Source: an uncultured Actinomycetota bacterium (lineage in GTDB: Bacteria > Actinomycetota > Actinomycetes > Frankiales > Frankiaceae). From it: a DNA stretch of 64,000 bases. Numbering within the stretch: the stretch's first letter is position 1; every line of letters starts with the position of its first letter. Under the pieces are notes generated by a model, which worked only from the letters and a program-made list of their open reading frames with translations, had not been told where the DNA came from and searched no databases. A program made the translations under genes and the position numbers. Location: NCBI GenBank assembly GCA_963711135.1, contig CAVQCZ010000005.1, forward strand, positions 163,149 to 227,148, given 5' to 3'. Below, in pieces: positions 1-8,893 of the stretch.

Positions 1-2394
1 GCGACCAAATATCTCGGGGATCGACTCGGTCAGGATTGTGAGGAGATCGGCGTGCCTGCCCAGCGGTGCATGCGGAAGGAGTTGGACGTCGGCGAAAGGC
101 TTGAGGCCCGGCTGGTCGCGGAGCAGGTCATGCGCGATGGCCCGTGCTCGTACCCAGTTGCTCGTGCTCAGGAACGGCGCAAGAGCCTGCAGCGCATCAT
201 CAGAGTTGTATTCCGACCCTTCACTTTCCAGCGCGTCGAGGCAGCCGACGACGTGTCGCTCTCGCTCCTGCGCCGTCATCCAAGGAGCGAGCTCGCCAAA
301 TGCGTAAGCGCGGTCCGTTGCCCAGAGTTCGTCGAGTTCCTTCCCTATCGGCCACCAGTGGGCGTGGCGGCGCAGCTCGCGCTCCAGGACGCGCCAGGGC
401 TCGTCGCCGAACGCTCGGACGGCGAGCTCGCGATCGATGCGCGGCGCGAGGTCTGCGAGGCGGACATCGTCCTCGGCGACGTCGATGCCTTGCAGGATGT
501 CAACCCGTTCCGTATCGGAAAGGGCGGGAAAGATGGCGACCAGACCTGCCAGCCGAACGGCAGGGGAGTCGGTCTCGTGGACAAGTGCTCGCGCTGACTC
601 CAGGTCGCCCTCCTCGACGAGCCGGCTGACGACGCTGACCGATGCTTCGATGAGCTCGTCGTCGTAGCGGGCGTCAAGCCCACGCACTATCGAGATCGCG
701 AGCTGGATCCCTTCGCCGCTGAGGGCGGGCGCCAGGGCGGTGAGGTAGCCGGCCCGGTTTGATGAATACTCGAGGCGGGAGCAGCGCGAGAGTGCCCTAC
801 GCTGCGACCACAGGCCGTGCTTGATCAGAGCAGCGGCGAACGCGCCGTCAACAAGGTCGTCAGCAGCTGCCGCGCCGGCACTCAAGAACGTGCACCACGC
901 TCTGAGCGCGGGCCAGCGCGCGCTCGCGCCCGATGCGACGGCCGCCGCGTCTGCCCGAGCAGCCGCGGAGTGCACGCGGTCGATGTCATCGATCCAGCCG
1001 GCGAGGTCATCGTTCAGCTTCATCCAGGCCGAACGCCACTCAGGGCTGAGCAGCTGCAGCATGCGGCCGGGATCAGCCTGAGCTCGCTCCAGATGCTGGC
1101 CCAGATGGCGAACCGCGTACGGCGCCGGCTCTTCGGGTGCGGGGATCAGCGAGCTTCCCGTCCACTCGATGAAGACGCGGTCGAGTGCTGCGAGGTCGCC
1201 GTCATCGCGCAGGCGCGCCAGCCGGTGCTCCTGCAGTCTCGGGTGTGCGATCGCGAAGACGCGGGGGCTCGGGCTGATCAGCAAGCGGTCAAGGGCACCA
1301 AGGGCAAAGTCGAGGTCGTCGCCACTGATGGGGAACTCGAGGCGCGCAAGCTCGAGCAGGCCCCGCCGTTCGAGCGGCCCCAGGGCCGACGTGAGCAGAT
1401 CGAAGACGCGGCGGGTCTGCGCGGAAGCGGCGTCGCCCCAAAGGCGCTGCTGGTCCTCCCACCAGCGATCGAGGAAGCCGGCGAGCCCGCCGCTGCTGTC
1501 GCGTAACCAGTCGCTCACCGAGCCCCGGTCCTGAAACGGATGCGCCCAAAGATGGCTGGCGTACAAGCCGACCACGAGCGGATCTCCGCCTGAGATCTCG
1601 TGCAGTTTGGCAACCAGGCCCGGATCGTCTGCCAGAGTGCTGAGCGACGGACCCATGTGCGTCAGCACGTCTTGGACGTCGCCTTCGCTCAAGGTCCCGA
1701 GCGCCACCACGTCAGCCCGCGACCAACCGAGGTCTTGCAACCAGTCGCTCGGAGCGGAGTGAGACGCCGTCAGCCTGGCGGAAACGAGAAGCTTGACATC
1801 AGGGTGCGGCGGTTGCGGGAAAAGCGACGGTCCGAACTGCCAGCCCGACGTCTCGTCGAGACCGTCGATGACGACCAGCACGCGAGTGCCCTCCGGCGGG
1901 GAGCGGAGCATGAGCTCGCCCACGACGTCGCGCCAGTCATCAGCAGAGTCTCCGAACGCGGGCTCTCCGTGAACCGCCGCCAGCCGGGTCGCCAACGCGC
2001 GAAGCACCGTCGCTTGCCTGTTGAACTCGAAGCGAATGCTGATGGGCACGAAGACGATCTGAAGGCGCTCTCGCCGGTCGGCGGCGGTGAGGCGGTCGCA
2101 CCAGCGGGCCACCAGCGACGACTTGCCGCGACCAGGCGGCGCGGCGACTAGCAGATACGGCTGCTCGGCCTGCCCGAGCCAGGAGTCAAGCCGGCGAAAT
2201 TCTTCACGGCGCCCACCGAACGGCTGCGGTCGCTCCGGAGAATCCCGATACTGCGCAAGGAAATTTGCGATAAGAGCGGCCCCGGGCAGCGGGCCGCCGA
2301 TCCGTTGCTGCCACCCGCCGTAAACCAGGATGACGCTGCCACCCGCATGGACGTCCTGGAGCTGGAAGACCGGCCGGTCGGGAGCGGGCGGCAA
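1..2394 (-). CDS. NACHT-type STAND NTPase (NLR-like), N-terminal part. The gene runs off the left window edge.
   Basis: It is absent from the ORF track because there is no stop codon in the window. My minus-strand translation gives ...RPVFQLQDVHAGGSVILVYGGWQQR...EQPYLLVAAPPGRGKSSLVARWCDRLTAADRRERLQIVFVPISIRFEF...GTRVLVVIDGLDE. This contains a Walker A motif (GRGKSS, about 2116-2133) and a NACHT-like Walker B motif (VLVVIDGLDE, about 1852-1880). The track lists no competing ORF of 60 aa or more in this frame. The only canonical start upstream of the P-loop is a TTG at 2394, 15 nt after the stop of the upstream gene, with GGGAGGG immediately 5' of it. Confidence 0.75.
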   Translation of the reverse strand, partial: MPPAPDRPVFQLQDVHAGGSVILVYGGWQQRIGGPLPGAALIANFLAQYRDSPERPQPFGGRREEFRRLDSWLGQAEQPYLLVAAPPGRGKSSLVARWCDRLTAADRRERLQIVFVPISIRFEFNRQATVLRALATRLAAVHGEPAFGDSADDWRDVVGELMLRSPPEGTRVLVVIDGLDETSGWQFGPSLFPQPPHPDVKLLVSARLTASHSAPSDWLQDLGWSRADVVALGTLSEGDVQDVLTHMGPSLSTLADDPGLVAKLHEISGGDPLVVGLYASHLWAHPFQDRGSVSDWLRDSSGGLAGFLDRWWEDQQRLWGDAASAQTRRVFDLLTSALGPLERRGLLELARLEFPISGDDLDFALGALDRLLISPSPRVFAIAHPRLQEHRLARLRDDGDLAALDRVFIEWTGSSLIPAPEEPAPYAVRHLGQHLERAQADPGRMLQLLSPEWRSAWMKLNDDLAGWIDDIDRVHSAAARADAAAVASGASARWPALRAWCTFLSAGAAAADDLVDGAFAAALIKHGLWSQRRALSRCSRLEYSSNRAGYLTALAPALSGEGIQLAISIVRGLDARYDDELIEASVSVVSRLVEEGDLESARALVHETDSPAVRLAGLVAIFPALSDTERVDILQGIDVAEDDVRLADLAPRIDRELAVRAFGDEPWRVLERELRRHAHWWPIGKELDELWATDRAYAFGELAPWMTAQERERHVVGCLDALESEGSEYNSDDALQALAPFLSTSNWVRARAIAHDLLRDQPGLKPFADVQLLPHAPLGRHADLLTILTESIPEIFGR

Positions 2395-2408
2395 CCCTCC
2401 CGGCGCCG

Positions 2409-2864
2409 CTAAGGGTTTGCCGGGCCGCCGCTCTCGCCGGCTTCGACGTTCGAGACCGACAAGCCGCCCCGCAGCTTCAGCCCTTCGCCGCGAAACCCAG
2501 TTCCCGTCGCGCGAATGGTGCCCACGTGGATGAATTCGGCCTCGACATTCTTGAGGTCGATGCCGATTGCGGCGGCAGCCCCGGAGTCGCTCTCGCGCAC
2601 CGCCGCAACCAGCTGGCGCGCCAGGTCCAAGAGCTCGCTATCCTCTTGGGCGCCGCCGTCTGACAGATCCTCCGCTACGGAGGCACGCTTTGCCTCAGAC
2701 TCTGGCTTGCGCTCCAGATCGTCCAGCACGACGTTCTTGTAGCGGCTCGAAAGAAGCCGCTTGATCGCGCCGTAGGCGTCCTTCACGGCTGCGGTGGCAT
2801 TTTCTTTGAAGCCGGCGGCCGCTCCGGCGGCGAGCGCGGCCACGATCAGCGAGACCGGGTCCAT
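2409..2864 (-). CDS. Small Bell/HeLo-analogous-like protein with a C-terminal amyloid-type motif (candidate NLR-controlled executioner)
   Basis: This is a 151-aa ORF. The N-terminus is a hydrophobic Gly/Ala helix (MDPVSLIVAALAAGAAAGF), followed by a charged helical middle. The C-terminal tail (IGIDLKNVEAEFIHVGTIRATG...GLSVSNVEAGESGG) carries two copies of a [LV]x[ND]V[EH]A motif. The same motif recurs at the N-terminus of the downstream NLR (QLQDVHAGGS). Confidence 0.6.
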   Translation of the reverse strand: MDPVSLIVAALAAGAAAGFKENATAAVKDAYGAIKRLLSSRYKNVVLDDLERKPESEAKRASVAEDLSDGGAQEDSELLDLARQLVAAVRESDSGAAAAIGIDLKNVEAEFIHVGTIRATGTGFRGEGLKLRGGLSVSNVEAGESGGPANP

Positions 2865-2967: not shown

Positions 2968-5541
2968 TCAGCTCACGGTGATGGTGAATGACTGCATGAA
3001 CGCCCCGGTGCTGTTGGTGGCGGTAAGGGTGAGCGGATAGCTGCCTGCCGTCCCTACCTTTGCCGTGCCACTGAAAGTTCGGGTGGCGGCGCTGTAGGTG
3101 ATGCCCTTGGGCAGCGTGCCGGTCTTGGTGATCTTCGGGTTCGGGAATCCGGTGGCGGTGGCCTGGAAGGAGAACGGGACCCCGACGGTGGCTGACGCGC
3201 TCGCCGGGCTGGTGATCGTCGGCCCCTCGTGCACCTTGAGGGTGAGCGTCCGGGTGGTACTTCCCAGGCCGTTGGTCGCGATGATGGTGATGGCATAGCT
3301 CCCGCCGCTGCCCGCGAGCGGGGTGCCGCTGAGCGCGCCCGTGCCGTCCCCGTTATCGGTGAAGGCGATACCCGCGGGCAACGGGCCGGACTCGCTCAGG
3401 GCCGGGGTGGTGTAGCCCTTCGCCGTGATCGGCAGGGTGAGCGATGAGCCGACGGTGACGGTGGCGTTCGGGGCCTTCACGATCTTGGGTGCTTTGGTGA
3501 TCGCCAGCGTGAAGGTCTGGCTGGAGGTGCCCGCGGTGTTCTTCGCGGTCAGGGTGAGGGTGTAGATGCCAACCGCCCCACCGCTCGGGGTGCCGGCGAT
3601 CGTGGCGGTGCCGTCGCCGTTGTTGGTGAAGCTCACCCCTGCGGGCAGCCCGCCGGATTTGGTCAGCTTCGGTGCCGGGTAGCCGCTTGTGGTGACGGTG
3701 AAGCTGAACGGGACGCCGAACGTCTCGGTGTCAGCGGCGGGGCTCGTGATCGCGGGTGGCCCCACCGCCGGGCCGACCGCGACACCGTAGATCACCGACG
3801 GCACGTAGCCGGTGAGGGCGGTCTGGGTGCCGTTGGGGGCGATCTCGACGAGCTGGAAGCGATTGTTCGCGCCCGGGGTGGTGCCGGTGATCGCGCCGGC
3901 GAAGACGTCGCTGCCGTCATCCGCGGCGAGGGCGTATGCAAGGACCGGGGCGATGGTCGAGTACGTCCCGCCAGCCGGCGGGATCGCGGCGATCTGATTG
4001 TCGTGGTCGAGATCGGTGTAGACGTTTCCCGCCTGGTCGACGGCCACGCCATACGGGGCCGGGACGTCGGCGAGATCGACCTGAGGGCCGCCGTTCGCCG
4101 GGATCTCGTTGACGTCATAGTGGCCGAAGTCGGAGAAGAAGACGTTGTCGTGGGAGTCGACCGCAACGCCGGTGGGATAGAGCACGTTCGATCCGACCGC
4201 ATGCGGAGCGCTCCCGTCTCCGGGCACCTCCAGCAGCCCGTTGTACGGCAACGTGGCGTAGGCGACGTAGGCATTGCCCTGGCTGTCGACCGCGATGGCG
4301 GTCGGCGTCTGAGAATTGCCGGGAAGCTTCCCGCCGAGGTAAGCCCCGGTGGGCGAATACTCGACGATGCCGGGCGACCCGCTCTGCGCGATCCACACGT
4401 TTCCGTTGTGGTCGACAGTGACACCTCGCGGATCCGTCAGCCCGCCGGCGAACAGCGCAGGCGTCGTCGGGTCTGACGGGGTGATCCGGTAGACGCCGTC
4501 CGATTGCGTGTAATAGACGTCGTGCGGGCTGGCGGCCGGGATGAAGGTCTCCGTCGCGGTGCCGCACGGCTCTCCGGTGTCGACGGTGCCGCTGCTATTC
4601 GCGTCGGCGCATCCGGTGACGGTGTCCTGGCCCGCGGTCGCAGGGCCCTGATAGCTGAACGTGCACTGCCCGCTCGCGTCGGTGGTGCACGAGCCGGTCG
4701 TGGTCGTCGCTCCCGCGACGGTGAAGAGCACCGTGCCGGCTTCCACCGGGTAGCCGCCGGCGTCGTCCACGGTGGCGGTGACCGTAGCGGCGGCTCCCAC
4801 GGTGTTGGCCGAGGTCGGCGGTGAGAGTGTGACGCTCGCCGGCACCTGCACGGGAGTGCCGGTGGACAGGAAGATCGCGCTGTAGCCCGATTGCGATCCG
4901 CTGCCGGAGCTGCTGGTGGCGTAGGTGTAATCCTCCCCGCCGGCGTTTCCGATGCCAGAATCTGTGTAGAGGCCTGTCGGTGTTGGGATCGTGGCGGTGT
5001 AGGTCACGTTGGTGAGGAATTCGACCGCTTGCGTCTCCGCTTGGGGGATGATCGTAACCCCGTCGAAAGCTCGTACGTCCGCGGTGAGCCGGAAGCAAGC
5101 ACCGACCGGGTTAAGGCCTGAAGCGACCGCCCAGTCCCGCGTACCCGAGATCGTCGTGCTACCAGACGTGATGGTGAAGACGCCGTGGAATTGCGTCGTG
5201 GTGCCTATATTTACCGGCTCCGTGTAGTACAGGAAATTGTCCGTGGGCTGCGTCTGAGGGCTGATCTGCGCGGTGTAGGACTCGGTGAACGTGCCCGGGT
5301 ACGGCCCGGCGGCGTGTCCGCTGACCGTGCCGCTGAGTGTCGTCACTCCGGTGGGATTGCACTCGCTGGTGATGTTGTTCGAGCCGACGACCGGGACGAT
5401 GTCTCCGCCAGAGAAGAAGCTCTCCCCTTGGAGGCTTGCCGGCGGCGTCGCGGCCGAGGCGGTGCTGGCAGTGACAATTCCCGTCGCGACCATTCCCAGT
5501 AACGCCAACGTGGCCGCGCCGCTTCGACGTAAGCGTGACAT
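2968..5541 (-). CDS. Secreted protein with Big_1-like Ig, an NHL-repeat beta-propeller and three He_PIG-type Ig domains
   Basis: The track ORF is 2968..5712. I prefer the internal ATG at 5541 because a GGGGGA RBS sits about 8 nt upstream and it yields the signal peptide MSRLRRSGAATLALLGMVATGIVTASTASA. NHL-like blades are visible (GVTVDHNGNVWIA, IAVDSQGNAYVAY, GVAVDSHDNVFFSD, GVAVDQAGNVYT). Three units of about 90 aa with LP.G[VI].F...DGT..[IL]SGTP lie at the C-terminus. Confidence 0.8.
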   Translation of the reverse strand: MSRLRRSGAATLALLGMVATGIVTASTASAATPPASLQGESFFSGGDIVPVVGSNNITSECNPTGVTTLSGTVSGHAAGPYPGTFTESYTAQISPQTQPTDNFLYYTEPVNIGTTTQFHGVFTITSGSTTISGTRDWAVASGLNPVGACFRLTADVRAFDGVTIIPQAETQAVEFLTNVTYTATIPTPTGLYTDSGIGNAGGEDYTYATSSSGSGSQSGYSAIFLSTGTPVQVPASVTLSPPTSANTVGAAATVTATVDDAGGYPVEAGTVLFTVAGATTTTGSCTTDASGQCTFSYQGPATAGQDTVTGCADANSSGTVDTGEPCGTATETFIPAASPHDVYYTQSDGVYRITPSDPTTPALFAGGLTDPRGVTVDHNGNVWIAQSGSPGIVEYSPTGAYLGGKLPGNSQTPTAIAVDSQGNAYVAYATLPYNGLLEVPGDGSAPHAVGSNVLYPTGVAVDSHDNVFFSDFGHYDVNEIPANGGPQVDLADVPAPYGVAVDQAGNVYTDLDHDNQIAAIPPAGGTYSTIAPVLAYALAADDGSDVFAGAITGTTPGANNRFQLVEIAPNGTQTALTGYVPSVIYGVAVGPAVGPPAITSPAADTETFGVPFSFTVTTSGYPAPKLTKSGGLPAGVSFTNNGDGTATIAGTPSGGAVGIYTLTLTAKNTAGTSSQTFTLAITKAPKIVKAPNATVTVGSSLTLPITAKGYTTPALSESGPLPAGIAFTDNGDGTGALSGTPLAGSGGSYAITIIATNGLGSTTRTLTLKVHEGPTITSPASASATVGVPFSFQATATGFPNPKITKTGTLPKGITYSAATRTFSGTAKVGTAGSYPLTLTATNSTGAFMQSFTITVS

Positions 5542-5833
5542 GTGAATTCCCCCAGCGCGAAAGCAGCTGCCGGTGCACGAGGATGGGTCCCCCGACGCGC
5601 CTTCGAGTCCGGCTTCGGGCAGAGCGTAGGGCCAGGCCGCACCGGTTTGTGTGCGAAATTTGAAATTCGTTGAAATTCGCAGCGACGACCCCGGCCGGAT
5701 TTGACACCTCATTCAAATAAATATCGATCCAGGGTGCTTCGGTGAAATCCGGCTCACCGTGACCGTTATTAGGTGGGGGGCAGCCAGCGGCGAGCGCGCG
5801 ACTGCACTTCTCGACGTGGGTTTGACGGCGAGC

Positions 5834-6217: not shown

Positions 6218-6433
6218 CGGCACCACGCGGTACGAGCCCGCGGGCAACGACTTGTACCGTCGGACTCGGAGCGTGCAAGCCACTGAGTTGACCGAGTCGG
6301 CATCGGTCGAAACTCGAGAGGGGCTCGTCTCCGGTCGTGCAGGAGACTGGCTGCTCAAAGGAGAACATGACGACGTTGGATCGTCGACGCCCAACACTTC
6401 CAGTCGGCATACCGAGACTCCGGCGACTGAGAG

Positions 6434-8893
6434 CTAAACAGGTTTGTCGCCGGATCGGCCGAAGGCGACGTTGGCGAGGCCTTTGACGTACCAGGTGCCG
6501 TTGCTGGGTCGGAAGACGGCGTAGTCGGTTTTGCCGTCGCCGTTGAAGTCGGCGGCGAGGGGGATGTCGCCGGATCGGCCGAAGGCGACGTTGGCGAGGC
6601 CTTTGACGTACCAGGTGCCGTTGCTGGGTCGGAAGACGGCGTAGTCGGTTTTGCCGTCGCCGTTGAAGTCGGCGGCGAGGGGGATGTCGCCGGATCGGCC
6701 GAAGGCGACGTTGGCGAGGCCTTTGACGTACCAGGTGCCGTTGCTGGGTCGGAAGACGGCGTAGTCGGTTTTGCCGTCGCCGTTGAAGTCGGCGGCGAGG
6801 GGGATGTCGCCGGATCGGCCGAAGGCGACGTTGGCGAGGCCTTTGACGTACCAGGTGCCGTTGCTGGGTCGGAAGACGGCGTAGTCGGTTTTGCCGTCGC
6901 CGTTGAAGTCGGCGGCGAGGGGGATGTCGCCGGATCGGCCGAAGGCGACGTTGGCGAGGCCTTTGACGTACCAGGTGCCGTTGCTGGGTCGGAAGACGGC
7001 GTAGTCGGTTTTGCCGTCGCCGTTGAAGTCGGCGGCAAGGGGGATGTCGCCCGACGTCCCGAAGGCCACGTTGGCAAGGCCTTTGGCATACCAGGTTCTG
7101 TTGCTGGGTCGGAAGACGGCGTAGTCGGTCTTGCCGTCGGCATTGAAGTCCCCGAACGGCCAGTCTGCCCGGCGAACGGTCTTGAGGGATGCGTCATTGA
7201 GCGTCACCGCCCCTGCGGTAGCGGCATGGGCATATCGCCGACCGCTATTGACCAGCCAGCCCGATTGTGACGGGGTACCGATCAGCTGCGTCCCGTTCAT
7301 CGGCGTGCGCAACAAGTGGGCCGCGGGGGTCGATGCGTTGTCGACATCCCACTGGTCGACCAGCACGGACGACTGCGGGCCTCCGAAGGGTGTCCAGTCG
7401 GTGACAGGGAAGGCGGTCCCGCCGGCGACCCGGTAGTACGCGCCGCTGATGGTCCGAAGGAACGTCCCGCTGGCGGGTAAGGATCGCAGGTGAGCGGCCG
7501 GATTGGCGGTGTTGTCGACGTCCCATTCGTCGACGGCCACACCTGGCTTGGGGCCACCGATTGCGGCCCAGTTGCTGAGGTAGAGGGGTGCGCCGCCGGC
7601 GACGATGAAAACGCCGCCACCGGAAGCATCGAGGATGGTGCCGTCGAGGGGCACGGGCCGCAGGTGGGCGGCCGGATTGGCGGTGTTGTCGACGTCCCAT
7701 TCATCGACGGCCACACCTGGCTTGGGGCCACCGATTGCGGCCCAGTTGCTGAGGTAGAGGGGTGCGCCGCCGGCGACGATGAAAACGCCGCCACCGGAAG
7801 CATCGAGGATGGTGCCGTCGAGGGGCACGGGCCGCAGGTGGGCGGCCGGATTGGCGGTGTTGTCGACGTCCCATTCGTCGACGGCCACACCTGGCTTGGG
7901 GCCACCGATTGCGGCCCAGTTGCTGAGGTAGAGGGGTGCGCCGCCGGCGACGATGAAAACGCCGCCACCGGAAGCATCGAGGATGGTGCCGTCGAGGGGC
8001 ACGGGCCGCAGGTGGGCGGCCGGATTGGCGGTGTTGTCGACGTCCCATTCATCGACGGCCACACCTGGCTTGGGGCCACCGATTGCGGCCCAGTTGCTGA
8101 GGTAGAGGGGTGCGCCGCCGGCGACGATGAAAACGCCGCCACCGGAAGCATCGAGGATGGTGCCGTCGGCGGGGACGGCGCGTAAGGCGTCAAACTGCGC
8201 CTGCGAGATCTGGGAGACCGGCTGATTGCCACCGACGGCCGCCCACGAGCTCACATACAGCGGGGCGCCTCCGGCGATTCGGTAAACAGCAGGCAATCCC
8301 GTCACGACGACAAAGGTGCCGTCAGCCAGCGCCCCGGAACCACCGCCGACGTCGTGAGGGTGCAGGAAAGCATCGACTGAACTGGCTGCTATCCAGCCGG
8401 CATCGGTGTAACCATTGGTGGTTGCCGAGGTGAAGTTGTCAGCCACGACATGGACTTGGCTGCCGCTCACCTGGTCGACGTAAGCAACATGCCCGAAGCC
8501 GGCGGCGACTTCGGAACCCCACCAGGCAATGGATCCCACCGCTGGGGTGTGGTTGCCGCCGCCGTTGTGACTGGCCCAAGTAACAGCGTTTCCCCAGTTA
8601 CCGGGATCCGCCATGCCGTTCTGCTGAAGACGCCAAGCGGCGTACAGGGTGCAGTTGTGATAACCGTTCGCCGTTTGCGCGTAGCTGGCGCCGTAGTGTG
8701 TCCAGGCCCACGTGCCGGCGGCGTTGGCGCCGGTGTAGCCGGGGGTGCAGGCATAGCCGTAGCTCAGGCAGTCGGTCTGGGATGCTGACGCCGGAGATGC
8801 AGCAACAAAAGTCAGCGTAATCAAGGCGGCCGCAATCGACCCCAAGAATGCTACGCATGACCGGACACTTTTCCGGCCGCCAAACATCTCCAC
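6434..8893 (-). CDS. Secreted CHAP-domain amidase with six copies of an uncharacterised 58-aa module and six FG-GAP-like 40-aa repeats
   Basis: A signal peptide is present (…LITLTFVAASPASA). The CHAP Cys and His contexts are NCTLYAAWRL and GHVAYVDQV. The middle holds repeated DGTILDASGGGVFIVAGGAPLYLSNWAAIGG... modules. The C-terminus holds DFNGDGKTDYAVFRPSNGTWY repeats. Confidence 0.85.
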   Translation of the reverse strand: MEMFGGRKSVRSCVAFLGSIAAALITLTFVAASPASASQTDCLSYGYACTPGYTGANAAGTWAWTHYGASYAQTANGYHNCTLYAAWRLQQNGMADPGNWGNAVTWASHNGGGNHTPAVGSIAWWGSEVAAGFGHVAYVDQVSGSQVHVVADNFTSATTNGYTDAGWIAASSVDAFLHPHDVGGGSGALADGTFVVVTGLPAVYRIAGGAPLYVSSWAAVGGNQPVSQISQAQFDALRAVPADGTILDASGGGVFIVAGGAPLYLSNWAAIGGPKPGVAVDEWDVDNTANPAAHLRPVPLDGTILDASGGGVFIVAGGAPLYLSNWAAIGGPKPGVAVDEWDVDNTANPAAHLRPVPLDGTILDASGGGVFIVAGGAPLYLSNWAAIGGPKPGVAVDEWDVDNTANPAAHLRPVPLDGTILDASGGGVFIVAGGAPLYLSNWAAIGGPKPGVAVDEWDVDNTANPAAHLRSLPASGTFLRTISGAYYRVAGGTAFPVTDWTPFGGPQSSVLVDQWDVDNASTPAAHLLRTPMNGTQLIGTPSQSGWLVNSGRRYAHAATAGAVTLNDASLKTVRRADWPFGDFNADGKTDYAVFRPSNRTWYAKGLANVAFGTSGDIPLAADFNGDGKTDYAVFRPSNGTWYVKGLANVAFGRSGDIPLAADFNGDGKTDYAVFRPSNGTWYVKGLANVAFGRSGDIPLAADFNGDGKTDYAVFRPSNGTWYVKGLANVAFGRSGDIPLAADFNGDGKTDYAVFRPSNGTWYVKGLANVAFGRSGDIPLAADFNGDGKTDYAVFRPSNGTWYVKGLANVAFGRSGDKPV
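6437..7150 (-). repeat. 120-bp coding tandem repeat, about 6 copies, the central copies identical at nucleotide level
   Basis: The sequence lines at 6481, 6601, 6721, 6841 and 6961 are identical. Each unit encodes DFNGDGKTDYAVFRPSNGTWYVKGLANVAFGRSGDIPLAA. Confidence 0.95.
7472..8167 (-). repeat. 174-bp coding tandem repeat, 4 near-identical copies
   Basis: The period is 174 bp; for example, the motif cggtgttgtcgacgtccca recurs at 7507, 7681, 7855 and 8029. Copies differ only by an alternating ttcgtc/ttcatc SNP. Each encodes a 58-aa module. Confidence 0.9.

What the first reader, a model, noticed from the sequence alone, without database searches (positions are those of the whole stretch)
1..2864. 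Bell-like protein plus NACHT NLR pair sharing a short motif: candidate amyloid-signalling cell-death module
**Seen in the sequence.**
- A 151-aa protein has an N-terminal Gly/Ala hydrophobic helix and a C-terminal tail containing two motif copies (LKNVEAEFIHV and VSNVEAGES).
- 15 nt downstream an NLR-like NTPase begins. Its first roughly 25 residues contain QLQDVHAGGSVILV.
- It continues with a NACHT Walker A (GRGKSS) and Walker B (VLVVIDGLDE).

**Established knowledge.** In filamentous Actinobacteria and Cyanobacteria, Bell-domain proteins with C-terminal BASS motifs sit next to NLRs that carry the same motif N-terminally. These are thought to act like fungal HET-S/NWD2 (Dyrka et al. 2020).

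**Inference.** This pair fits that scheme with the shared motif [ND]V[EH]AG.S.
Basis: partly seen in the sequence, partly recalled or inferred. Interest (0 to 1): 0.75.

Follow-up and report, generated by a model that had tools for sequence, protein, structure and literature searches.

The report
Frameshift-coupled Bell effector and NLR sensor
A small membrane-targeting "Bell" protein and a NACHT-type immune sensor, a known kind of bacterial cell-death pair, appear here to be joined by a conserved programmed -1 ribosomal frameshift, a coupling I found no report of for such systems.

Summary
The 151-aa protein (2409..2864, minus strand) has a genuine Bell domain (hhalign 99.65% against Bell proteins paired with NLRs) and a two-repeat beta-strand tail. 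The downstream gene is a NACHT-clade STAND NTPase whose N-terminal motif resembles published BASS4. The stated shared motif fails a pairwise shuffling test. It is marginal by profile for this locus (9/500 shuffles) and clearly real across the family (19/46 loci at p<=0.01).

The small ORF ends in A_AAC_CCT TAG, a canonical -1 slippery heptamer. Of 47 related loci from several phyla, 31 carry an in-frame X_XXY_YYZ heptamer at that position, mostly A_AAC_CCY or C_CCA_AAN, and the other 16 have C_CCY. The figure is 0/45 for Bell loci with other tails and 3.9% for background ORF ends. The partner gene lies in the -1 frame in 46/47. A covarying hairpin follows 4-7 nt downstream. In the orthologue L162, and in at least 15 other loci, the conserved partner N-terminus lies upstream of any ATG/GTG/TTG.

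Best reading: ordinary termination gives free effector, and frameshifting gives an effector-NLR fusion. Amyloid signalling itself remains an inference by analogy.

The parts
2409..2864 (-). 0-frame ORF: 151-aa Bell-domain protein with a two-repeat C-terminal tail (stop codon TAG at 2409..2411)
   Evidence: ORF list. 352 homologues, mostly about 151 aa and full length, from several phyla.
2565..2864 (-). Bell domain, residues 1-100: N-terminal hydrophobic helix with Asp at position 2, then a helical bundle
   Evidence: hhalign 99.65%, E=5e-25 against Bell+BASS3 proteins paired with NLRs. AlphaFold model with pLDDT 88-96 over residues 1-90 and helices at 3-18, 25-41, 48-52, 57-69, 76-92 and 94-100.
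2502..2564 (-). Tail repeat 1, residues 101-121 (GIDLKNVEAEFIHVGTIRATG)
   Evidence: Family consensus G[VI]DLxxVxAxFxRxxxV. Predicted strands at 102-105 and 108-114. Weak hit of the proxy BASS4 profile at residues 104-110.
2427..2501 (-). Tail repeat 2, residues 122-146 (TGFRGEGLKLRGGLSVSNVEAGESG)
   Evidence: Family consensus GTGVxV...GGIxIxxVxAG. Predicted strands at 124-127 and 130-137. Proxy BASS4 profile hit at residues 137-144.
2412..2418 (-). Putative -1 slippery heptamer A_AAC_CCT in the frame of the small ORF, immediately before its stop codon
   Evidence: Sequence. An in-frame X_XXY_YYZ heptamer lies in the last 14 codons in 31/47 same-tail loci, 0/45 other-tail loci and 3.9% of background ORF ends. 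Synonymous-site conservation. Identical heptamer in the relatives L162 and L163.
2369..2409 (-). Predicted imperfect GC-rich hairpin starting 2-3 nt after the heptamer; candidate frameshift stimulator, weak in this locus
   Evidence: MFE -21.7 kcal/mol for the 50 nt after the site, the 7th percentile of random positions. No better than shuffles over 75 nt (z=+1.2). The homologous sequence in L163 folds cleanly at -27.8. Family-wide enrichment and covariation.
2392..2394 (-). TTG, the only canonical start candidate in the -1 frame before the motif (7th codon after the shift site); used by gene callers
   Evidence: P0121 starts MPPAPDRP. No equivalent start exists in L162, L164 or L166.
2314..2370 (-). 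NLR-side BASS4-like motif VFQLQDVHAGGSVILVYGG (codons 15-33 after the shift site)
   Evidence: 19.8 bits against the family NLR-side motif profile, reached by 0/2000 shuffles; the orthologue L162 is in that profile. The same profile prefers published BASS4 over all other BASS classes.
1654..2220 (-). STAND NTPase domain of the NACHT clade, with Walker A GRGKSS (2116..2133) and Walker B VLVVIDGLDE (1852..1881)
   Evidence: Pfam NPHP3_N 29.7 bits (passes its cut-off), AAA_16 30.6 bits, NACHT 20.5 bits (below its cut-off). Coordinates.
1..2412 (-). -1 frame ORF from the shift site to the window edge: 804 codons, incomplete, with about 450-530 residues outside the window
   Evidence: The frame is open to the window edge. 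The orthologous ORF in L162 is 1,337 codons from the shift site. Neighbours of P0004 and P0005 are 1,304 and 1,289 aa.

Best explanation
This is a Bell-domain effector paired with a NACHT-clade NLR-like sensor of the bacterial amyloid-signalling type, with BASS4-like motifs. The two reading frames are coupled by programmed -1 ribosomal frameshifting.

Most ribosomes translating the small ORF terminate at TAG (2409..2411). This releases the 151-aa protein: a Bell helical bundle plus two beta-strand pseudorepeats. A minority slip back one nucleotide on A_AAC_CCT (2412..2418), helped by the adjacent stop codon and a downstream hairpin. They continue in the -1 frame through a short linker, a third BASS4-like repeat (VFQLQDVHAGGSVILVYGG) and the NTPase. 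The result is a Bell-repeat-repeat-linker-repeat-NACHT-sensor fusion of roughly 1,450-1,500 aa, made at a fixed low ratio to the free effector.

By analogy with HET-S/NWD2 and Bab/Agp, ligand-induced oligomerisation of the NTPase would cluster the N-terminal repeats. These would nucleate a cross-beta fold that templates the free effector's tail, and the Bell domain's N-terminal helix would be released to attack the membrane.

Shown here: Bell homology, the NTPase class, BASS4-likeness of the NLR-side motif, and the comparative signature of a frameshift site. That signature comprises the heptamer, synonymous-site conservation, the frame relationship, a covarying hairpin, and a coding N-terminus that lacks a start codon in relatives.

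Inferred: that frameshifting actually occurs and at what efficiency, amyloid templating, membrane killing, and an immune role. In this window the TTG at 2394 could additionally allow independent initiation.
For: Module identity:
- hhalign 99.65%.
- AlphaFold model of a helical bundle plus four strands.
- NPHP3_N, AAA_16 and NACHT hits.
- Relatives with other tails show clear matched Bell/NLR motif pairs.
- The family NLR-side profile scores BASS4 at a median of 7.4 bits, against -1.5 to 1.6 for the other nine classes.
- The Bell-tail profile finds the NLR-side peptide at p<=0.01 in 19/46 loci.

Frameshift:
- A_AAC_CCT TAG is in the window.
- An in-frame X_XXY_YYZ heptamer is present in 31/47 same-tail loci, 0/45 other-tail loci and 190/4891 background ORF ends. 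The other 16 same-tail loci have an in-frame C_CCT or, in L003, C_CCC.
- In 19 A_AAC_CCY loci the preceding codon encodes 8 different amino acids but always ends in A. The Pro codon is CCT in 18/19, although CCT is 8% of Pro codons in this window.
- The conserved motif types match the E. coli shiftiness rules: C_CC.Y is prone, C_CC.A_AA.A is efficient, and A_AA.C_CC.A is inactive (PMC4066793).
- The partner ORF is in the -1 frame and open from the site in 46/47 loci. Control loci are spread 15/7/9 over the three frames.
- The -1 frame often closes only 3-8 codons upstream of the site.
- Hairpin MFE averages -22.5, against -14.4 and -13.9 in controls (p=1.5e-9 and 8e-19).
- In the hairpin, 7/12 stem pairs show compensatory changes and 0/500 shuffles reach the covariation score.
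- Between WIN and L162, 49 of the 72 codons after the site encode identical residues, with nucleotide differences of 20/12/42 by codon position. Yet L162 has no ATG/GTG/TTG before codon 71 and no SD-like sequence.
- L164 and L166 likewise lack a start before the motif.
- At least 15 further loci have the first start after or inside the motif.
Against: - No experimental data.
- In the window itself a TTG lies 6 codons after the shift site, so independent initiation is possible. Gene callers use it (P0121).
- The window's own hairpin is imperfect: z=+1.2 over 75 nt and the 7th percentile over 50 nt.
- No natural single-ORF Bell-NLR fusion was found with the trans-frame query.
- The loci are homologous, so the counts are not fully independent.
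- The same-tail set was chosen by eye from tail similarity.
- The window's Bell-side tail is only weakly similar to the NLR-side motif.
- The proxy BASS4 profile gives just 2-3 bits.
- No solved structure supports the Bell fold assignment.
- No repeat domain was detected in the sensor region of the orthologue.
Confidence: 0.65

Rival explanations
1. This is an ordinary two-gene operon. The NLR is translated independently from TTG 2392..2394. The A_AAC_CCT sequence merely encodes the conserved C-terminal Asn-Pro, and no frameshift occurs in this organism.
For: - A TTG is present in the window, and at similar positions in L163 and L165.
- Gene callers annotate the NLR from it.
- The window's hairpin is weak.
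- No in-frame fusions are known.
- Published Bell/NLR pairs are described as separate, often overlapping, genes.
Against: - GGGAGGG abuts the TTG with a spacing of 0-1 nt, and it is a hairpin arm in L163.
- The orthologues L162 and L164 conserve the same N-terminus with no start codon.
- Conservation at synonymous sites (third-base A, the rare CCT) is not explained by protein coding.
- A different heptamer, C_CCA_AAN, sits at the same place in other clades.
- Bell loci with other tails lack any such heptamer (0/45).
Confidence: 0.2
2. The partner is made by non-canonical initiation (CTG, ACG or ATT) or by termination-reinitiation after the small ORF's stop. The hairpin acts as a coupling or occlusion device rather than a frameshift stimulator.
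For: - Many loci lack ATG/GTG/TTG before the motif, so some non-standard event is required.
- The stop codon often lies right at the site, with TAG or TAA the next codon in 9/19 A_AAC_CCY loci.
Against: - This does not explain conserved X_XXY_YYZ heptamers of two different sequences, or the fixed -1 frame in 46/47 loci.
- In several loci the heptamer lies 4-7 codons before the stop.
- L162 has no SD-like sequence near the junction.
- The position of the hairpin, 4-7 nt after the heptamer, is the classic geometry of a frameshift stimulator.
Confidence: 0.07
3. The pair is functionally linked, but the tail and the N-terminal motif do not signal through amyloid. They could form a soluble beta-sheet or beta-solenoid interaction (beta-augmentation or a heterotypic adaptor), or in the fusion simply a folded linker domain.
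For: - The tail is conserved across phyla over its full length, more like a folded domain than a fast-evolving prion motif.
- AlphaFold gives a monomeric four-strand sheet at pLDDT 68-83.
- Bell-side to NLR-side similarity is weak in this locus.
- BASS4 was not among the motifs tested experimentally in Dyrka et al., which tested BASS1 and BASS3.
Against: - The architecture of two repeats on the effector and one on the NLR mirrors HET-S/NWD2.
- The NLR-side motif groups with BASS4.
- Other BASS classes on the same Bell domain form prions and fibrils (abstract).
- BASS11 signalling has been demonstrated in vivo.
Confidence: 0.25

Closest known systems
Bell-domain / BASS - NLR gene pairs of filamentous bacteria, class BASS4 (Dyrka et al. 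2020, bioRxiv 10.1101/2020.01.06.895854)
   Same: - Homologous Bell domain.
- Collinear, adjacent NACHT-clade partner.
- A motif of about 20 aa at the Bell C-terminus and the NLR N-terminus.
- The motif is repeated on the Bell side, as reported for BASS4 (PMC8086366).
- The NLR-side motif profile selects BASS4 among the ten classes.
   Different: - Published BASS4 pairs are cyanobacterial, plus one from Spirosoma. This family spans Actinomycetota, Acidobacteriota, Chloroflexota, Nitrospirota-like and other lineages.
- The forward test with a proxy BASS4 profile is weak.
- The junction carries a conserved -1 frameshift signal that those papers do not mention.
- Some partners are not NTPases.
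HET-S / NWD2 of Podospora anserina
   Same: The effector has a membrane-targeting helical domain plus two pseudorepeats. The NLR has a single N-terminal copy, and the genes are adjacent. The proposed logic is templated folding that activates a pore-former.
   Different: There is no sequence relationship of the motifs (not tested here). In the fungus the genes are separate and no recoding is involved. Here the sensor probably carries the whole effector at its N-terminus.
Bab/Agp (BASS11) abortive-infection system of E. coli (Ibarlosa et al. 2024, bioRxiv 10.1101/2024.11.07.622273)
   Same: A small Bell-related helical effector with a C-terminal amyloid motif sits next to a large sensor with the same motif at its N-terminus. 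Its antiphage role has been demonstrated.
   Different: The sensor there is TPR-GreA/B-C-PIN, not a NACHT NTPase. The motif class is different. There was no detectable sequence or fold match to any PDB entry, Bab (9H9V) included. No frameshift is reported.
Programmed -1 frameshifts that set a fixed ratio of two products sharing an N-terminus: dnaX tau/gamma, phage tail assembly chaperones G/GT, IS3/IS911 OrfA/OrfAB
   Same: An X_XXY_YYZ heptamer in a short overlap window, a downstream stem-loop 4-7 nt away, and a minor long product plus a major short product from one mRNA. The motif types obey the E. coli rules (PMC4066793).
   Different: The context is an immune/cell-death effector-sensor pair. 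The A_AAC_CCU heptamer followed directly by a stop codon is unusual. None of the products has been observed.

Membership tests
Bell domain (Dyrka et al. 2020) | Sequence homology to Bell-domain proteins that carry BASS tails and pair with NLRs | tested here: met
   hhalign of A2 against A4 (Bell+BASS3/RHIM-like proteins from loci with matching NLR motifs): 99.65%, E=5e-25, 96 columns. 9 of 12 A4 tails hit Pfam RHIM weakly.
Bell domain (Dyrka et al. 2020) | N-terminal predicted hydrophobic helix with an acidic residue at position 2 or 3 | tested here: met
   MDPVSLIVAALAAGAAAG, with Asp at position 2. Helix at residues 3-18 in the model. Criterion taken.
Bell domain (Dyrka et al. 2020) | Five-helix bundle of about 100 aa in a short protein of about 120-140 aa | tested here: met
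   The AlphaFold model has five main helices plus one short helix within residues 3-100, with pLDDT 88-96. The protein is 151 aa, slightly long because the tail is doubled. No PDB neighbour confirms the fold.
Bell domain (Dyrka et al. 2020) | Membrane-targeting cell-death activity | not testable with these tools
   Needs expression and toxicity assays.
BASS4 amyloid signalling motif | Match to the BASS4 sequence profile on the NLR side | tested here: inconclusive
   Reverse test positive: the family NLR-side profile scores BASS4 at a median of 7.4 bits (NLR-side 9-12.4), against -1.5 to 1.6 for the other classes. Forward test weak: a proxy HMM built from the 18 published sequences gives 2.1 bits, reached by 9/2000 shuffles. 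The authors' own profile HMMs were not available.
BASS4 amyloid signalling motif | The same motif at the C-terminus of the adjacent Bell protein | tested here: inconclusive
   Pairwise test not significant. Bell-tail profile against the window NLR: 1.0 bit, 9/500 shuffles. Family-wide, 19/46 loci reach p<=0.01. Window tail against the NLR-side profile: 0.7 bit, 195/2000 shuffles.
BASS4 amyloid signalling motif | Pseudorepeats on the Bell side and a single copy on the NLR side | tested here: met
   Two repeats at residues 101-121 and 122-146. One copy at codons 15-33 of the -1 frame. BASS4 is reported as repeated on the Bell side in PMC8086366.
BASS4 amyloid signalling motif | Forms amyloid fibrils or prions, with the NLR-side motif templating the Bell-side motif | not testable with these tools
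   Requires fibrillation, ThT, ssNMR and cross-seeding assays. ArchCandy and PASTA were not available.
NLR-like STAND protein (NACHT/NB-ARC plus repeats) | NACHT or NB-ARC NTPase domain with Walker A and Walker B | tested here: met
   NPHP3_N (a NACHT-type model) at 29.7 bits passes its 24.8 cut-off. Pfam NACHT itself scores 20.5, below its 26.7 cut-off. GRGKSS and VLVVIDGLDE are present.
NLR-like STAND protein (NACHT/NB-ARC plus repeats) | C-terminal TPR or WD repeat sensor domain | tested here: inconclusive
   The C-terminus lies outside the window. The complete orthologue in L162 (1,337 codons) has no Pfam repeat hit at E<=0.1. Other family partners have TPR (L012, L016) or FGE-sulfatase (L010).
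Programmed -1 ribosomal frameshift site | X_XXY_YYZ slippery heptamer in the upstream frame within the overlap window | tested here: met
   A_AAC_CCT at 2412..2418. 31/47 same-tail loci against 0/45 and 3.9% in controls. A_AA.C_CC.U-type and C_CC.A_AA.A motifs are shift-prone in E. coli.
Programmed -1 ribosomal frameshift site | Conservation of the site beyond what the encoded protein requires | tested here: met
   The preceding codon takes 9 forms encoding 8 amino acids, all ending in A. CCT in 18/19 loci against 8% usage. AAC in 19/19.
Programmed -1 ribosomal frameshift site | Stimulatory RNA structure a few nucleotides downstream | tested here: inconclusive
   Family: met, with hairpins of 9-14 bp starting 4-7 nt downstream, MFE -22.5 against -14, and covariation 0/500. 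Window: imperfect hairpin at -21.7, the 7th percentile, with z=+1.2 over 75 nt. The homologous L163 hairpin folds at -27.8.
Programmed -1 ribosomal frameshift site | The downstream frame is coding but lacks its own initiation signal | tested here: inconclusive
   Met in the relatives L162, L164 and L166 and in at least 15 other loci. Not met strictly in the window, where a TTG lies 6 codons after the site.
Programmed -1 ribosomal frameshift site | Trans-frame protein detected | not testable with these tools
   Needs a reporter assay, mass spectrometry or ribosome profiling.

The most novel reading that the evidence does not exclude
In this widespread clade of Bell/BASS4-like systems the sensor is not a separate protein. 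It is made only, or mainly, as a -1 frameshift extension of the effector, so one mRNA yields abundant free effector and rare effector-sensor fusion at a hard-wired ratio. I found no earlier report of programmed recoding in a prokaryotic NLR or amyloid-signalling immune module. It would mean the nucleating seed is an effector molecule covalently attached to the sensor.
Probability: 0.6. Interest if true: 0.85.

Novelty: new variant of a known kind. Interest (0 to 1): 0.78.

Why it matters
Bell/BASS-NLR pairs are the bacterial counterpart of fungal HET-S/NWD2 and are now linked to antiphage defence. How the cell sets the sensor-to-effector ratio and keeps a prion-like effector silent is an open question.

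A conserved frameshift would give a simple answer. The ratio is written into the mRNA, and every sensor carries its own copy of the effector and its repeats as a built-in nucleus.

There is also a practical consequence for annotation. In many genomes the sensor gene is called tens to more than a thousand nucleotides too short: 297 nt in L162 and 1,382 nt in L166. This deletes the signalling motif from protein databases and would hide such pairs from motif-based screens. The prediction is directly testable with a reporter assay and one mass-spectrometry experiment.

Tried and rejected
- Pfam, NCBIfam and PADLOC on the small protein gave no family. PADLOC and NCBIfam on the NLR also gave nothing.
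- The precomputed PF20701 label on some relatives could not be reproduced or named.
- A PDB sequence-profile search and a Foldseek search of the model against the PDB gave nothing significant. The Bell assignment therefore rests on homology to Bell/BASS3 proteins.
- Pairwise Smith-Waterman of tail against N-terminus was not significant.
- The proxy BASS4 HMM gave only 2-3 bits.
- Rfam on 2200..2600 found no known frameshift element or other RNA family.
- A search with the predicted trans-frame junction product for natural in-frame Bell-NLR fusions found none. P0124 is a Bell protein fused to something unrelated.
- The source organism could not be named: the cluster look-up returned no accession or name, and the exact-match contig was only a 3.6-kb Logan fragment.
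- An intrinsic terminator as an explanation for the hairpin was considered and rejected, because the 75-nt stretches listed show no U-tract after the stem. The promoter/terminator scan tool was not run.
- Transcriptional slippage was rejected because the site has no long homopolymer.
- DNA for P0004 and P0005 was unavailable; only gene tables were returned.

Full report
**1. Checking the observation**

The 151-aa ORF is real. It lies at 2409..2864 on the minus strand. It starts MDPVSLIVAALAAGAAAG and ends in a tail containing LKNVEAEFIHV and VSNVEAGES.

Downstream on the same strand one frame stays open from 2418 to the window edge. It reads ...PVFQLQDVHAGGSVILVYGG..., then GRGKSS (Walker A, 2116..2133) and VLVVIDGLDE (Walker B, 1852..1881).

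Pfam places this protein in the NACHT clade of STAND NTPases:
- NPHP3_N scores 29.7 bits and passes its cut-off.
- AAA_16 scores 30.6 bits.
- NACHT itself scores 20.5 bits, below its 26.7 cut-off.

The only canonical start in that frame before the motif is TTG at 2392..2394, 14 nt after the stop. GGGAGGG directly abuts it.

The small protein matches nothing in Pfam, NCBIfam or PADLOC.

**2. Is the shared motif more than chance?**

Taken alone, it is not. The best local alignment between tail and NLR N-terminus is 'GGP' with score 19, which about 65% of shuffles reach.

Profile tests give a graded answer:
- A profile of Bell tails from 68 relatives, with the window excluded, hits LQDVHAGG at 1.0 bit. 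This is reached by 9/500 shuffles, so it is marginal.
- The same profile reaches p<=0.01 in 19 of 46 related loci, where about 0.5 would be expected. The hits always fall on the repeat cores.

The motif relationship is therefore a property of the family. It is barely visible in this one locus.

**3. What the small protein is**

It has 352 homologues, mostly about 151 aa and conserved over their full length, from several phyla. The family consensus includes the tail: G[VI]DLxxVxAxFxRxxxVxxxGTGVxV......GGIxIxxVxAG....P.NP.

I retrieved 80 genomic and 80 metagenomic loci. Many encode proteins that share only the N-terminal ~90 residues and carry other tails. In those loci the downstream NLR starts with an obviously matching motif. 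Examples:
- L035: GKYTVDVRGAQGVQIGDRNTQ paired with RVDAHGAVGVQVGQDNTQ.
- L040: FQGEVGSAVVGDDAHVNV paired with FHGDVDVAVVGDHATIHI.

Several of these tails are the published RHIM-like BASS3 sequence (Table S2).

A profile-profile comparison of our family with those Bell+BASS3 proteins gives 99.65% probability and E=5e-25 over residues 1-98.

The AlphaFold model has mean pLDDT 83. It shows an N-terminal hydrophobic helix, a bundle of five main helices up to residue 100, and then four beta-strands (102-105, 108-114, 124-127, 130-137). These features meet the Bell criteria of Dyrka et al..

No PDB entry matches by sequence or by fold, so those two searches were uninformative.

**4. Which motif class**

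Table S2 of Dyrka et al. lists nine BASS4 pairs, such as VVQRILENVWAGRDITIGDIHQ and QKIFENVQASGDINIRDIYQ.

- Forward test: a proxy HMM built from those 18 sequences gives only 2-3 bits in the window. It does pick out exactly three sites, which are tail repeat 1, tail repeat 2 and the NLR N-terminus. All three align to its core positions and rank among the top few of 1,807 background windows.
- Reverse test: this is clearer. A profile of 30 NLR-side motifs from this family scores published BASS4 at a median of 7.4 bits, with NLR-side members at 9-12.4 bits. Every other BASS class has a median between -1.5 and +1.6.

The NLR-side motif is therefore BASS4-like.

The arrangement of two repeats on the Bell side and one on the NLR matches the report that BASS4 is often repeated on the Bell side (PMC8086366). 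It also matches HET-S/NWD2.

The window's Bell-side tail resembles the NLR-side profile only weakly (0.7 bit, 195/2000 shuffles). Several published Bell-side BASS4 sequences are equally weak.

**5. The unexpected part: the junction**

I listed the downstream frames of loci with the same tail type. In many of them the motif-bearing N-terminus of the partner lies upstream of any ATG/GTG/TTG. The partner frame reads through the small ORF's stop as ...KPL....

In the window the DNA at this point is GCA AAC CCT TAG. This is A_AAC_CCT, an X_XXY_YYZ slippery heptamer in the small ORF's frame, followed immediately by the stop.

*Heptamer occurrence.* I compared 47 same-tail loci: the window, genomes from Actinomycetota, Acidobacteriota, Chloroflexota, Manganitrophus, Desulfobacteraceae and others, and metagenomes.
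- 31 of 47 have an in-frame X_XXY_YYZ heptamer in the last 14 codons, almost all A_AAC_CCY or C_CCA_AAN.
- The other 16 all have an in-frame C_CCT or, in L003, C_CCC.
- 0 of 45 Bell loci with other tails have such a heptamer.
- 190 of 4,891 background ORF ends (3.9%) have one.

*Synonymous-site conservation.* This covers the 19 A_AAC_CCY loci.
- The codon before AAC takes nine forms (GAA, GCA, GGA, TCA, AAA, CCA, AGA, CAA, CGA) encoding eight amino acids. All end in A.
- Asn is always AAC.
- Pro is CCT in 18 of 19, although CCT is only 8% of Pro codons in this window's long ORFs.
- Protein coding does not explain this conservation. It follows the E. coli shiftiness rules of Sharma et al. 2014: C_CC.Y is prone, C_CC.A and C_CC.G barely so, C_CC.A_AA.A is efficient, and A_AA.C_CC.A is one of three dead heptamers (PMC4066793).

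*Frame relationship.*
- The partner ORF is in the -1 frame and open from the site in 46/47 loci, for up to 1,423 codons.
- In control loci the partner frames are spread 15/7/9 over the three frames.
- In several loci the -1 frame closes only 3-8 codons upstream of the site, so the possible shift window is very narrow.

*Downstream hairpin.*
- A hairpin with a 9-14 bp stem starts 4-7 nt after the site in nearly all loci.
- The MFE of the following 50 nt averages -22.5 kcal/mol. Controls average -14.4 at the ORF ends of other-tail loci and -13.9 at random positions (p=1.5e-9 and 8e-19).
- On an alignment of 25 loci, a 12-bp stem is 82% paired and 7 of its 12 pairs show compensatory double changes. 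No shuffle out of 500 reaches the covariation score.
- Rfam has no matching family.

**6. Is the region after the site really translated without its own start?**

L162 carries the clear orthologue of the window pair. Its junction is the identical GAA AAC CCT TAG.

- Of the 72 codons after the site, 49 encode the same residue as in the window: ...F[QD]L[QN]DVHAGGS[VI]ILV...QQRIGGPLPGAA.IA.FLAQYRD.PERPQPFGGR.
- Nucleotide differences fall 20/12/42 at codon positions 1/2/3, which is a coding signature in the -1 frame.
- L162 nevertheless has no ATG, GTG or TTG before codon 71 and no SD-like sequence. The gene caller started the gene 297 nt downstream.

Other close relatives agree:
- L163 has the same A_AAC_CCT TAG CGGCGCCGGGAGGG junction, folding into a clean -27.8 kcal/mol hairpin. 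The window's GGGAGGG is therefore a hairpin arm, not a ribosome-binding site.
- L164 and L165 use C_CCC followed by a stop.
- L164 and L166 have no start before the motif. In L166 the gene caller began the partner gene 1,382 nt downstream.

At least 15 more distant loci have the first canonical start after or inside the motif.

**7. Interpretation**

The best-supported reading is a programmed -1 frameshift.
- Normal termination gives the free 151-aa effector, which has a Bell domain and two repeats.
- Slippage on A_AAC_CCT gives Bell-repeat-repeat-linker-repeat-NACHT-sensor. The linker is largely encoded by the hairpin.
- The full sensor is about 1,240-1,340 residues in relatives, so about 450-530 residues lie outside the window.

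By analogy with HET-S/NWD2 and Bab/Agp, sensor oligomerisation would nucleate the repeats, template the free effector, and release the Bell helix to attack the membrane. Those steps are inferred, not shown.

Caveats for the window specifically:
- The TTG at 2394 leaves independent initiation possible.
- The local hairpin is imperfect (7th percentile; z=+1.2 over 75 nt).
- A search with the predicted trans-frame product found no natural in-frame fusion.

For these reasons I put frameshifting at about 0.85 for the family and about 0.7 for this locus.

**8. Partners and context**

The -1 frame partners are diverse:
- NACHT-clade NTPases with TPR repeats (L012, L016).
- One with an FGE-sulfatase domain (L010).
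- Some with unannotated C-terminal regions (window, L002, L005).
- Short proteins of 231-346 aa with no Pfam family in Mycobacterium, Gordonia, Rhodococcus, Nocardia and Manganitrophus loci (tested examples L023, L018 and L093).

The orthologous locus L162 lies beside ubiquitin-like (Multi_ubiq/ThiF/BubE) and HTH-Peptidase_M78 genes, a context typical of defence islands.

**9. Novelty**

The frameshift coupling is not mentioned in the two key papers. Two full-text searches of the library also found nothing on it. I therefore class this as a new variant of a known kind.

The verdict is comparative and computational. A reporter assay and one mass-spectrometry experiment would settle it.

Noticed in passing
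L015, L023, L024, L029, L031, L036, L042, L098 (Mycobacterium, Gordonia, Rhodococcus, Nocardia); L017-L019, L092-L095 (Manganitrophus and metagenomes): The same Bell-plus-tail protein is followed in the -1 frame by short proteins of about 230-350 aa rather than an NTPase. Examples are '...VTASVKAVPIGQGLWTVTVTNASSGPITDLEVDVYGVDG...' and '...RGVDPYRDFLNDPAGPWDLSF...'. The three representatives scanned (L023, L018, L093) have no Pfam family. These may be a new class of partner or sensor for Bell effectors.
   Followed up: partly
L162:2834-5672 and 967-2061: The orthologous locus sits next to Multi_ubiq, ThiF (E1-like), BubE and DUF6791 genes and an HTH_3-Peptidase_M78 gene. This is a bacterial ubiquitin-like system and a defence-island-like neighbourhood.
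   Followed up: no
L162, L164, L166 and gene tables for P0004 and P0005: Automatic gene callers start the partner gene 48 to 1,382 nt after the small ORF's stop, cutting off the conserved N-terminal motif. Protein databases therefore under-represent this motif, and motif-pair screens would miss these loci.
   Followed up: partly
P0124 (449 aa): A Bell domain plus the first tail repeat is fused in frame to an unrelated ~320-aa region that ends in a hydrophobic, membrane-like segment. This is a different architecture built on the same effector head.
   Followed up: no
window 6434..8893 (-) and overlapping ORFs 6355..7197, 7297..8232: An 819-aa predicted secreted protein has four near-identical ~57-aa repeats (GTILDASGGGVFIVAGGAPLYLSNWAAIGGPKPGVAVDEWDVDNTANPAAHLRPVPLD) and six ~40-aa repeats ([40 protein letters not shown]). 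The repeats also create long spurious ORFs in other frames.
   Followed up: no
window 2968..5712 (-): A 914-aa signal-peptide protein lies immediately upstream of the Bell gene on the same strand. The gene table for the Logan contig L001, which carries the same small ORF, lists He_PIG plus weak or faint NHL, SGL and Vgb_lyase hits for the corresponding gene. Nothing links it to the module.
   Followed up: no
P0052, P0061, P0068, P0096, P0104 and others: The database carries a precomputed Pfam label, PF20701, for some family members. A local Pfam-A scan at E<=1 did not reproduce it, so the family's name and its relation to the Bell domain remain unresolved. P0116 and several BASS3-tailed relatives give weak EAD10 (PF19954) hits over the tail, which suggests that Pfam's EAD10 overlaps a BASS-type motif.
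   Followed up: partly
L011 (Nocardia testacea NBRC 100365): This is the only same-tail locus where the -1 frame closes after 63 codons. The motif continues in another frame (...PAVALTEANVG / DGDVSVHYSVV...), which suggests a second frame break from a sequencing error or a pseudogene.
   Followed up: no
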